Part shown: piece after piece, positions 39,680 to 40,375 of the stretch
Numbering within the stretch: position 1 is the stretch's first letter
Layout of the letters: each line of letters opens with the position of its first letter
From: Escherichia coli
GTDB taxonomy: Bacteria; Pseudomonadota; Gammaproteobacteria; Enterobacterales; Enterobacteriaceae
Length of the DNA: 64,000 nucleotides
Strand: one strand, 5' to 3'
Assembly: GCF_003018255.1 (NCBI RefSeq)
Contig: NZ_CP027440.1
The notes under the pieces: model-generated
Databases searched by the model: none
What the model was told of the DNA's origin: nothing
Seen by the model: the letters and a program-made list of their open reading frames with translations, nothing else
Program-made: the position numbers and the translations under genes

Positions 39680-40375
39680 AAAAGTGATCCGTCATGTTAT
39701 CTCGTACAGGCCATGAACACGGCATATTTGTACCGCAAAAAAATATCGGCAATGCCGCCCTAATGGCGGTGAAAATAAAATTACCACTCCTTCATCACCC
39801 CGCATTCTACACTTCAAAATAAATAAGAAAAGGACTTCTTATCGATCGTAAAGAGGGGTATTCTGCAAGCGTTAAATAGATTGTGTGAACCTGTGCAATT
39901 CGCGTCAGGTGTATTATGGCAATAATTTAAATATAGATCTTTTATGTAACTTATTGAATTATACAATAATTTAATTAAACATAAGCTAATCTGATGATTG
40001 CTTGTTTATATATTTGTTTTGTGATTGATTAAGTGGGTATTTTTAAGGAATATCTCAAAAATTATCAAAATGATAATTCAAAAAGGATAAATACAATATT
40101 TATTCATGATTCAGCTTTGGCCATTTTATGGAGGCAATTTGGACTTTGAACAGTTGGGTATGGTTATCCAGATATATATTATTAACTTATTGCTGAATAA
40201 GAGATTTAATGATTTTAAAAATAGTTTTTACGACAACCGTAAATTCTAGCTCGGTTTGTATGTAAAAAATACTGAAAAATGATGCGGTTCCGTGAAGAGA
40301 GCTGCATCTGCCTGTCTGGGATTAACGGCAGGTCATTGTAAGTAGTAATTAACCACGTTAACAAGGAGTTTACAA
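39680..40375. promoter_or_regulatory. AT-rich divergent promoter/regulatory region between tssB (minus) and hcp (plus)
   Basis: About 700 bp, strongly AT-rich with no convincing ORF; three GATC sites; weak Fur-box-like motif around 40062-40080 (core AATGATAAT). Confidence 0.4.

What the first reader, a model, noticed from the sequence alone, without database searches (positions are those of the whole stretch)
39680..40375. Roughly 700-bp AT-rich divergent control region between tssB and hcp
This long non-coding spacer separates the two T6SS transcription units and is far more AT-rich than the flanking genes, which suggests nucleoid-protein (H-NS-type) silencing. It has three GATC sites and a weak Fur-box-like motif near 40062-40080; iron/Fur and Dam control of E. 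coli T6SS promoters is established, but the motif match here is poor.
Basis: inference. Interest (0 to 1): 0.4.

Follow-up and report, generated by a model that had tools for sequence, protein, structure and literature searches.

The report
Known H-NS-silenced T6SS divergent promoter region
The 696-bp AT-rich gap between tssB and hcp is the already-studied two-way promoter region of the common E. coli type VI secretion system 2, which published work shows is kept silent by H-NS. The suggested iron (Fur) and methylation (Dam) control has no support in the sequence.

Summary
The spacer is real. It runs 39680-40375, exactly 696 bp, between tssB (minus strand) and hcp (plus strand). Its GC is 32.8%, against about 52% in the flanks.

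It is near-identical (95-100%) in 2235 of 5426 complete E. coli genomes, including O157:H7. It is the published T6SS-2 "t6sP" bidirectional promoter, and the reporter primers of a Shigella sonnei study match its two ends exactly.

The H-NS reading is supported by published hns-deletion experiments in EHEC and APEC. The Fur/Dam reading is not supported:
- The three GATC sites, the Fur-like match, an H-NS motif and the 8-bp palindrome all occur at chance frequency in shuffles.
- None of the GATC sites is conserved across genera, and one is private to this strain.
- No GATC lies within 120 bp of the Fur-like motif.
- In the APEC ortholog, iron and fur do not affect expression.

Across 15 orthologous loci from several genera, what is conserved is the divergent layout, a spacer of 552-754 bp and 28-34% GC. 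Short promoter-like blocks near each end are also conserved.

One item may be new: two tandem stem-loops in the hcp leader (40282-40332), supported by compensatory changes. I found no description of them.

Verdict: an ordinary, already characterised region.

The parts
39179..39679 (-). tssB (contractile sheath small subunit), first gene of the structural operon
   Evidence: 166-aa ORF. Pfam T6SS_VipA, E=1e-51. RefSeq annotation of an identical genome.
39680..40375 (.). 696-bp tssB-hcp intergenic region, the published T6SS-2 bidirectional promoter 't6sP'
   Evidence: S. sonnei reporter primers match both ends exactly. No annotated feature, no Rfam hit, no conserved ORF.
39930..40280 (.). AT-rich core (12-38% GC per 50 bp), the inferred H-NS binding and spreading platform
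   Evidence: Composition. Its sequence is poorly conserved, but its composition and length are conserved in 15 orthologous loci. The H-NS role is taken from published hns mutants, not tested here.
39686..39689 (.). GATC-1, inside the tssB ribosome-binding region
   Evidence: Kept in O157-type E. coli and E. albertii; absent in the APEC type, Yokenella and C. youngae.
39844..39847 (.). GATC-2
   Evidence: Kept in 9 sampled O157-type E. coli; lost in E. albertii and other genera.
39936..39939 (.). GATC-3, private to this strain
   Evidence: Absent in the 8 other E. coli sequences sampled. It sits in a hypervariable spot.
39804..39809 (-). Candidate tssB -10 hexamer: TAGAAT here, TAAAAT in the Yokenella/Salmonella clade, TAGAAT in the APEC type. 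It would give a tssB leader of about 115 nt.
   Evidence: Conserved block CATTCTAC. The promoter assignment is inference; no transcription start site data were available.
39826..39866 (-). Conserved blocks AAGAAAAGGACTTCTT and AAAGAGGGGTATTCT upstream of the candidate tssB -10. They overlap a second sigma-70-like site (TTCACA-18-CAGAAT, 39889-39860).
   Evidence: Conservation profile; consensus scan. Function is inferred.
40060..40078 (.).
   Evidence: 12/19 match to the Fur consensus; chance level. Present only in O157-type E. coli, broken in E. albertii, absent elsewhere.
40070..40097 (+). Candidate distal hcp promoter, ATGATA-16-TACAAT. The -10 lies in the best-conserved central block (TATAAT in the Salmonella and Logan loci).
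   Evidence: Consensus scan; conservation at 40088-40111. Inference only.
40190..40230 (+). Segment aligned with the APEC hcp2B proximal promoter fragment (TTGCTG here, TTGACT in APEC). The APEC CpxR-site segment just upstream is missing here (18-nt gap).
   Evidence: Alignment. APEC primers map to L003/L004. PMC6534853. No GTAAA-N4-8-GTAAA in the region.
40282..40307 (+). HP1: the first conserved stem-loop of the hcp leader (GCGGTTC-N8-GAGCTGC)
   Evidence: 96% of cells paired in 8 diverse leaders, with changes on both sides of some pairs. Folds in single-sequence MFE structures.
40311..40332 (+). HP2: the second conserved stem-loop (CCTGTC-N10-GGCAGG), with GGA at the 5' side of the loop (40319-40321)
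   Evidence: Predicted by RNAalifold on 9 and on 17 sequences. 91.5% of cells paired against 34-44% in slid controls; covariation 0.451 against 0.284, 0 of 500 shuffles. GGA in 15 of 17 loops.
40337..40375 (+). Conserved TGTAAGT (40337-40343) and a nearly invariant ribosome-binding region, AACAAGGAGTTTACAA (Shine-Dalgarno AAGGAG at 40363-40368)
40376..40894 (+). hcp (called hcp3 or hcp2B in the literature), first gene of the hcp-vgrG-PAAR/Rhs side
   Evidence: 172-aa ORF. Pfam T6SS_HCP, E=5e-31. RefSeq WP_001142958.1.

Best explanation
This is the bidirectional promoter and leader region of the E. coli T6SS-2 island at the yafV end of the chromosome. Two weak sigma-70-type promoter areas sit near its two ends. 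One drives tssB-tssC-...-tssM leftwards; the other drives hcp(-vgrG-PAAR/Rhs) rightwards. Between and over them lies about 350 bp of 20-30% GC DNA. H-NS coats this DNA because of its composition, not because of a specific motif, and shuts both promoters off under laboratory conditions. Expression needs relief of H-NS plus further, still unknown, signals.

Shown by others: derepression in hns mutants, and operon structure. Shown here: identity with the studied region, conservation of layout, length and composition, and absence of a Fur/Dam architecture. Inferred: the exact -10 and -35 positions, and the H-NS platform being the AT-rich core.
For: - Identity: 95-100% identical in 2235 of 5426 complete E. 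coli genomes, including O157:H7. The gene order is that of T6SS-2. S. sonnei reporter primers match both ends exactly.
- Literature on this region: hns deletion raises z0264 about 60-fold in EDL933. hns deletion derepresses both sides in APEC. Replacing the spacer with PBAD/Ptac turns on tssB and hcp transcripts, and the tssB side is one operon. No tested medium induced the native promoters.
- Comparative: 15 orthologous loci (E. coli of two types, E. albertii, Yokenella, Citrobacter, Salmonella, Enterobacter, Superficieibacter) all keep divergent tssB and hcp, a 552-754 bp spacer and 27.7-34.4% GC against 48-54% in the flanks.
- The core is not conserved in sequence, whereas blocks near each end are.
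Against: - No H-NS binding was measured on this allele. The statement that H-NS binds the spacer reaches me second-hand (PMC13141884 citing Wan 2017 and Kim 2022); the Wan text I read shows expression data only.
- The published high-affinity H-NS motif TCGATAAATT is matched no better than chance (8/10; 88% of shuffles reach it).
- hns deletion alone gave little protein in EHEC, so H-NS is not the whole story.
- Promoter positions are predictions. Sigma-70-like sites are not enriched over shuffles.
Confidence: 0.85

Rival explanations
1. A Fur-Dam epigenetic switch like EAEC sci1. Fur would bind a box that overlaps a promoter element and contains a GATC, and Dam methylation of that GATC would lock the ON state.
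For: Three GATC sites and 12-13/19 Fur-consensus matches exist. The functional sci1 boxes match the consensus no better, at 13/19 and 11/19.
Against: - In sci1, three GATC lie within 53 nt and one lies inside the fur1 box over the -10. Here the GATCs are 158 and 92 bp apart, and the nearest is 124 bp from the Fur-like motif.
- Counts and matches are at chance.
- GATC-3 is private to this strain. Other genera carry 0-4 GATC at unrelated positions.
- APEC T6SS-2 does not respond to iron or fur.
Confidence: 0.04
2. Fur alone represses the rightward (hcp) promoter in O157-type E. coli, by binding the palindrome 40060-40078, whose right arm overlaps the -35 of the candidate distal promoter.
For: A perfect 8-bp inverted repeat made of Fur-like half sites overlaps ATGATA (40070-40075) of a conserved -10 candidate. 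It is invariant in 8 sampled O157-type E. coli.
Against: - The half sites are in the reverse order of the classical 7-1-7 Fur box (read directly from the sequence).
- The match is at chance level.
- The repeat is not conserved in E. albertii or beyond.
- The APEC ortholog is Fur-independent.
Confidence: 0.08
3. An additional post-transcriptional layer, not exclusive of the H-NS explanation. The two conserved stem-loops HP1 and HP2 in the hcp leader would act as an RNA element. Either they form a CsrA site (the GGA in the HP2 loop paired with the GGA in the Shine-Dalgarno, 46 nt apart) that blocks translation, or they are 5' stabilisers of the hcp mRNA.
For: - Compensatory changes keep both helices: 94.5% of cells paired against 30-46% in slid controls, and 5 pairs changed on both sides, reached by 6 of 500 shuffles.
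- The G-U pairs work only on the hcp-sense strand.
- GGA is kept at the 5' side of the HP2 loop in 15 of 17 leaders, although the rest of the loop differs.
- CsrA is reported to repress hcp3 and tssC in EHEC (Wang 2017, as cited in PMC13141884).
- A 3' hairpin stabilises hcp3 mRNA in EHEC, and stem-loops flank hcp4 in Yersinia.
Against: - The fold is not thermodynamically unusual (z=+0.74 for 90 nt).
- The sequences are related, so few independent events lie behind the covariation.
- Two leaders lack the GGA.
- More distant orthologs (Enterobacter, C. farmeri) have no such hairpins.
- No start site shows that the hairpins are transcribed.
Confidence: 0.35
4. CpxR-activated hcp promoter, as shown for APEC hcp2B.
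For: CpxR-P binds the APEC hcp2B promoter fragment, and cpxR deletion lowers hcp2B, vgrG and xmtU. The APEC fragment is the ortholog of 40190-40375.
Against: The 24-bp piece whose removal abolished CpxR binding (L003:3967-3990) falls largely in an 18-nt gap relative to this allele. No GTAAA-N4-8-GTAAA occurs in the region or in the O157 locus.
Confidence: 0.1
5. The spacer hides an unannotated small protein or small-RNA gene.
For: Several 38-50-aa ORFs exist in the spacer.
Against: No ORF is conserved. tblastn hits fall in several frames at the same places, so they reflect DNA similarity only. There is no Rfam match at E<=1. The central part is the least conserved. RefSeq annotates nothing here in the sampled genomes.
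Confidence: 0.03

Closest known systems
EHEC O157:H7 EDL933 T6SS-2 bidirectional promoter 't6sP' between tssB (z0264/z0265 area) and hcp3 (Wan 2017; Kim, Lee & Yoon 2022; Vazquez-Lopez 2026). The same spacer was studied in Shigella sonnei (Leung 2024).
   Same: The same locus and the same 696-bp spacer, 96.3% identical to an O157:H7 genome. The S. sonnei reporter primers match exactly. It is H-NS repressed and silent in vitro.
   Different: Only allelic differences: 41 variable positions among 9 sampled E. coli, including the private GATC at 39936.
APEC / B2-type T6SS-2 vipA2-hcp2B divergent region (Ma 2018; Yi 2019)
   Same: Orthologous layout, with a 701-705 bp spacer at 32-33% GC. Hcp is 94% identical. 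The hcp leader hairpins and several blocks are conserved. It is H-NS repressed and Fur-independent.
   Different: TssB is only 55% identical. The centre of the spacer is not alignable. The CpxR-site segment is present there and missing here. The Fur-like palindrome is present here and missing there.
EAEC sci1 (T6SS-1) Fur-Dam epigenetic switch (Brunet 2011)
   Same: An E. coli T6SS promoter upstream of tssB that is silent in rich medium and has weak Fur-consensus matches.
   Different: It belongs to a different T6SS family and locus. Its defining overlap of a Fur box, the -10 and a GATC, and its cluster of three GATC in 53 nt, are absent here.
H-NS silencing of other enterobacterial T6SS islands (Salmonella SPI-6, Brunet 2015; Klebsiella; Vibrio), as listed in the 2023 review PMC10482370
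   Same: An AT-rich, horizontally acquired island whose promoters are derepressed in hns mutants.
   Different: Different clusters and gene orders. No sequence relationship was tested.
Stem-loops that flank hcp and set its mRNA level: the EHEC h3R region I 3' hairpin (Vazquez-Lopez 2026) and the Yersinia pseudotuberculosis T6SS4 hcp4 flanking stem-loops (PMC12503267). Also RsmA/CsrA control of T6SS leaders in Pseudomonas.
   Same: Conserved hairpins next to hcp. CsrA is reported to repress hcp3 in EHEC.
   Different: HP1 and HP2 lie in the 5' leader, and I found no description of them. Their function is untested.

Membership tests
E. coli T6SS-2 tssB-hcp bidirectional promoter region (t6sP) | Lies between divergent tssB and hcp of the T6SS-2 cluster (tssB, tssC, tssE, tssF, tssG, tagH, tssJ, tssK, tssL, clpV, vasI, tssA, tssM on one side; hcp, vgrG, PAAR-Rhs on the other) | tested here: met
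   ORFs and Pfam; annotation of the identical genome.
E. coli T6SS-2 tssB-hcp bidirectional promoter region (t6sP) | Sequence identity with the experimentally studied EHEC and S. sonnei spacer | tested here: met
   96.3% identity to O157:H7 over all 696 bp (hit H26). S. sonnei reporter primers match at 39680 and 40356 with 0 mismatches.
H-NS xenogeneic silencing target | AT content well above the genome and flank average over several hundred bp | tested here: met
   32.8% GC against 53% in the flanks; minimum 20% over 200 bp. Conserved in 15 orthologs.
H-NS xenogeneic silencing target | Derepression when hns is deleted | not testable with these tools
   Published for near-identical EHEC (about 60-fold), for EHEC again in 2026 and for the APEC ortholog.
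H-NS xenogeneic silencing target | Direct H-NS occupancy of the spacer | not testable with these tools
   Asserted in PMC13141884, citing Wan 2017 and Kim 2022. The primary data were not readable.
H-NS xenogeneic silencing target | High-affinity nucleation motif (TCGATAAATT-like) | tested here: inconclusive
   Best match 8/10, three sites; 88% of shuffles do as well. The motif is not required for H-NS binding to AT-rich DNA (established knowledge).
Fur-Dam epigenetic switch (EAEC sci1 type) | A Fur box overlapping the -10 element | tested here: not met
   The Fur-like palindrome 40060-40078 overlaps at most a candidate -35. Matches are at chance level.
Fur-Dam epigenetic switch (EAEC sci1 type) | A GATC inside the Fur box | tested here: not met
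   The nearest GATC (39936) is 124 bp from the motif.
Fur-Dam epigenetic switch (EAEC sci1 type) | A cluster of GATC sites around the promoter (3 in 53 nt) | tested here: not met
   Three sites spread over 254 bp. The count is reached by 22% of shuffles. The sites are not conserved.
Fur-Dam epigenetic switch (EAEC sci1 type) | Induction by iron limitation or fur deletion | not testable with these tools
   The APEC T6SS-2 ortholog shows no effect on clpV2 or hcp2B. I found no test on the O157-type allele.
CpxR-activated hcp2B promoter (APEC) | A CpxR box GTAAA-N4-8-GTAAA upstream of the hcp promoter | tested here: not met
   No match in the region. The APEC site segment falls in an alignment gap.
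CsrA/RsmA-bound leader | A GGA in the loop of a short hairpin, plus a second GGA in or near the Shine-Dalgarno, 10-63 nt away | tested here: met
   HP2 loop GGA at 40319-40321 and Shine-Dalgarno GGA at 40365-40367, 46 nt apart. The loop GGA is present in 15 of 17 leaders. The spacing rule is from established knowledge.
CsrA/RsmA-bound leader | CsrA binding and a CsrA-dependent change in translation or stability | not testable with these tools
   Only a second-hand report that CsrA represses hcp3 and tssC in EHEC.
Any Rfam RNA family | A covariance-model match | tested here: not met
   No match at E<=1 over 39000-41200.

The most novel reading that the evidence does not exclude
The last 95 nt of the spacer encode a conserved, so far undescribed, two-hairpin leader of the hcp mRNA (HP1 40282-40307, HP2 40311-40332, with a loop GGA). 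This leader would set Hcp output after transcription, by binding CsrA together with the Shine-Dalgarno or by protecting the 5' end. That would help explain why EHEC makes little Hcp protein even when hcp mRNA is raised by deleting hns.
Probability: 0.3. Interest if true: 0.35.

Novelty: already known. Interest (0 to 1): 0.15.

Why it matters
T6SS-2 is the most common E. coli type VI system, and it is silent in the laboratory. That silence blocks study of its role in EHEC, STEC, Shigella and APEC. The spacer is where the silence is imposed, and this is already recognised and under experimental study, so the finding adds nothing new.

This check contributes three things:
- A clear sequence-based argument against carrying the sci1 Fur/Dam model over to T6SS-2.
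- A comparative map of what is conserved: layout, length, composition, end-proximal promoter-like blocks and two leader hairpins. This could guide start site mapping and mutagenesis.
- The observation that the APEC CpxR site is missing from the O157-type allele.

Tried and rejected
- Rfam scan at E<=1 over 39000-41200: nothing.
- Small ORFs in the spacer: none conserved.
- Sigma-70 and terminator consensus scan: not enriched over shuffles. The one terminator-like hit lies inside tssB.
- Fur consensus, the H-NS motif, GATC count and the inverted repeat: all at chance in 500 dinucleotide shuffles.
- CpxR box search: absent.
- A conserved structure in the tssB leader: only a weak 6-pair helix at -4.4 kcal/mol, not convincing.
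- Single-sequence folding of the hcp leader: not unusual, z=+0.74. The case for HP1 and HP2 therefore rests on covariation only.
- Kim, Lee & Yoon 2022 (J Microbiol 60:928), the paper that mapped transcription starts in this spacer, is not held. The start-site supplements of Sy 2020 are not held. Journet & Cascales 2016 is not held.
- The genome-contig scan with TssB returned only 4 loci. Diversity was obtained instead from protein-cluster look-ups and one metagenome DNA-pattern scan.
- I considered building a covariance model for the leader. I dropped it because only sequence already fetched could be searched.

Full report
**1. The observation**

The window carries tssB on the minus strand (39179-39679) and hcp on the plus strand (40376-40894). 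They are separated by exactly 696 bp, 39680-40375.

Pfam confirms both genes: T6SS_VipA at E=1e-51 and T6SS_HCP at E=5e-31. The RefSeq annotation of a 100%-identical genome, strain JNE23-011, gives the same boundaries and annotates nothing in between.

GC is 32.8% over the spacer. It falls to 12-38% per 50-bp block between 39930 and 40280. The flanks are 53% and the window mean is 51.3%. Only the left end of the T6SS island and the Rhs tip/immunity region are as AT-rich within the 64 kb.

There are three GATC sites, at 39686, 39844 and 39936. So everything described is there.

**2. Is it more than chance?**

The length and the composition are. The motifs are not. In 500 dinucleotide-preserving shuffles of the spacer:
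- The GATC count of 3 is reached by 22% of shuffles.
- The best Fur match, 13/19 at 40086, is reached by 43%.
- Five matches of at least 12/19 are reached by 14%.
- The best match to the H-NS motif TCGATAAATT (8/10) is reached by 88%.
- A perfect 8-bp inverted repeat is reached by 19%.

Sigma-70-like sites are not enriched either: 5 found against 3.3 +/- 1.5 expected.

**3. What it is**

The spacer occurs once per genome in 2235 of 5426 complete E. coli genomes at 95-100% identity. These include O157:H7, at 96.3%.

The surrounding gene order is that of the island next to yafV. On one side it reads tssB, a small ORF, tssC, tssE, tssF, tssG, tagH, tssJ, tssK, tssL, clpV, vasI, tssA, tssM. On the other it reads hcp, vgrG and PAAR-Rhs. 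The literature calls this system T6SS-2 and describes it as the most prevalent E. coli T6SS and the one present in EHEC (PMC13141884).

This very spacer has been studied:
- Wan et al. 2017 showed that the EDL933 cluster is almost silent (RPKM 5.7 against 198). Salt, pH, medium and temperature did not induce it, and deleting hns raised z0264 about 60-fold (PMC5363993).
- Vazquez-Lopez et al. 2026 named the spacer t6sP and replaced it with Ptac/PBAD. They showed that the tssB side is one polycistronic operon and that the hcp3 side is at least two. hns deletion raised mRNAs but little protein. [quoted passage not shown] No medium activated either native promoter.
- They also state that H-NS is bound to the spacer and that it has several transcription start sites, citing Kim, Lee & Yoon 2022. 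I could not obtain that paper.
- Leung et al. 2024 cloned the same spacer from Shigella sonnei in both orientations in front of GFP. Their primers match window 39680-39699 and 40356-40375 without mismatch. They found no induction by osmolarity, nutrients, temperature or polymyxin.

**4. Comparative anatomy**

I assembled 15 orthologous tssB-hcp spacers:
- two E. coli types (the O157 type and the B2/APEC type);
- E. albertii, Yokenella regensburgei and Citrobacter youngae;
- two Salmonella lineages;
- Superficieibacter, C. farmeri, two Enterobacter and another Citrobacter;
- one metagenomic contig.

All keep the divergent layout, a spacer of 552-754 bp and 27.7-34.4% GC against 48-54% in the flanks. 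The central part does not align between clades, while short blocks near both ends do. That pattern, with composition and length conserved but sequence not, is what a composition-reading silencer such as H-NS would predict (inference).

On the tssB side the conserved blocks are:
- the ribosome-binding region (39680-39695);
- GTACAGGCCATGAAC (39704-39718);
- CATTCTAC (39803-39810), which on the tssB strand reads TAGAAT and becomes TAAAAT in the Yokenella/Salmonella clade, making it a good -10 candidate;
- AAGAAAAGGACTTCTT and AAAGAGGGGTATTCT (39826-39866).

On the hcp side the best central block is ATACAATATTTATTCATGA (40088-40106). Its TACAAT is TATAAT in two clades and pairs with ATGATA at 40070-40075.

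These promoter assignments are inference. Within E. coli, 32 of the 41 variable positions lie in 39680-40009 and only 9 in 40010-40375.

**5. Fur and Dam**

The established Fur-Dam switch is that of EAEC sci1, a T6SS-1 cluster. There, a 13/19 Fur box overlaps the -10 and contains GATC-I, and three GATC lie within 53 nt (PMC3145626).

Here the three GATC are 158 and 92 bp apart, and none is within 124 bp of the Fur-like motif. GATC-3 is private to this strain among nine E. coli sampled. GATC-2 is lost in E. albertii. Yokenella and C. youngae have no GATC at all, and other genera have 0-4 at unrelated places.

The Fur-like palindrome is invariant in O157-type E. coli, broken in E. albertii and absent elsewhere. 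Its half sites are in the reverse order of the classical box.

Ma et al. 2018 showed for APEC that iron limitation and fur deletion induce T6SS-1 (hcp1) but do not change clpV2 or hcp2B, whereas hns deletion does (PMC5874247). The APEC primers map to the B2-type loci I fetched, with 0-2 mismatches.

Because functional sci1 boxes also match the consensus poorly, sequence alone cannot exclude weak Fur binding to the O157-type palindrome. I leave it at about 8%, and the full Fur-Dam switch at about 4%.

**6. CpxR**

In APEC, phosphorylated CpxR binds the hcp2B promoter, and removing a 24-bp upstream piece abolishes the shift (PMC6534853). That piece (L003:3967-3990) falls largely in an 18-nt gap relative to this allele. 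No GTAAA-N4-8-GTAAA exists here. CpxR control should therefore not be assumed for the O157-type allele.

**7. Something possibly new: the hcp leader**

A metagenome scan anchored on the invariant ribosome-binding site and hcp start gave 26 distinct leaders. Two tandem stem-loops precede the Shine-Dalgarno:
- HP1, GCGGTTC-N8-GAGCTGC, stem arms at 40284-40305, extendable to 40282-40307;
- HP2, CCTGTC-N10-GGCAGG, 40311-40332.

Evidence for the two helices:
- RNAalifold predicts HP2 on 9 and on 17 sequences.
- On 9 sequences, 91.5% of cells pair against 34-44% when partners are slid. The covariation score is 0.451 against 0.284, with 0 of 500 shuffles reaching it.
- On 8 diverse leaders, both helices give 94.5% of cells paired against 30-46% in slid controls. 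Five pairs changed on both sides, which 6 of 500 shuffles reach.
- The G-U pairs fit only the hcp-sense strand, which points to RNA rather than a DNA palindrome.
- The Yokenella clade has an HP1 of different sequence (GAGTT/AACTC) at the same place.
- A GGA sits at the 5' side of the HP2 loop in 15 of 17 leaders, although the rest of the loop varies. It lies 46 nt from the GGA of the Shine-Dalgarno.

Related published observations:
- CsrA is reported to repress hcp3 and tssC in EHEC (Wang 2017).
- A 3' hairpin stabilises hcp3 mRNA.
- Stem-loops flank hcp4 in Yersinia.

Caveats:
- The fold is not thermodynamically unusual.
- The sequences are related, so the number of independent changes is small.
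- More distant orthologs lack the hairpins.
- No start site shows that the hairpins are transcribed.
- I found no description of them in the searchable literature, but I could not read Kim 2022.

**8. Verdict**

The finding is a correct description of an ordinary, already characterised control region. The H-NS half of the interpretation agrees with published experiments on the same sequence. The Fur/Dam half is a transfer from a different T6SS family and fails the structural tests. Novelty: already known. Interest: low.

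Noticed in passing
window 38938-39144 (-), between tssB and tssC: A 68-aa ORF, annotated as a hypothetical protein (WP_000718847.1). Its residues 33-64 are 47% identical to TssC residues 63-94 (BLASTP E=7e-8), and it has no Pfam hit. A same-position ORF is called in O157:H7 and in a Salmonella ortholog. It is absent in the B2/APEC-type cluster, where tssB and tssC are 22 bp apart. It looks like a retained duplicate or relic of the TssC N-terminus.
   Followed up: partly
window 39179-40894 compared with L003/L004: Mosaic divergence between the two E. coli T6SS-2 types: TssB is only 55% identical while Hcp is 94% identical. Within O157-type E. coli, the tssB-proximal half of the spacer has 32 variable sites against 9 in the hcp-proximal half. 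This suggests a recombination boundary, or unequal constraint, inside the spacer.
   Followed up: partly
window 40895-41103 (hcp-vgrG gap): This 209-bp gap is the 'h3R' region. A 2026 paper reports that it holds a terminator or protective hairpin and a promoter, which split hcp and vgrG into separate operons. I did not analyse it here.
   Followed up: no
L001 544-1954 (about window 20223-21633, if the window is collinear with strain JNE23-011): In the best-matching genome, the VasL-domain gene at the far end of the structural operon is annotated as frameshifted. I did not check whether the window carries the same frameshift.
   Followed up: no
L001 28237-33290 (about window 47900-53000): Downstream of the PAAR-Rhs core there are IS1 and three ISAs1-family transposase genes (one with an internal stop) and an Rhs fragment. 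This coincides with low-GC segments of the window, which fits a rearranged Rhs tip/immunity array.
   Followed up: no
L116 and L130 (metagenome contigs): Two hcp copies keep the ribosome-binding site and start but have unrelated GC-rich sequence upstream in place of the AT-rich spacer and hairpins. These are presumably rearranged or orphan hcp loci.
   Followed up: no
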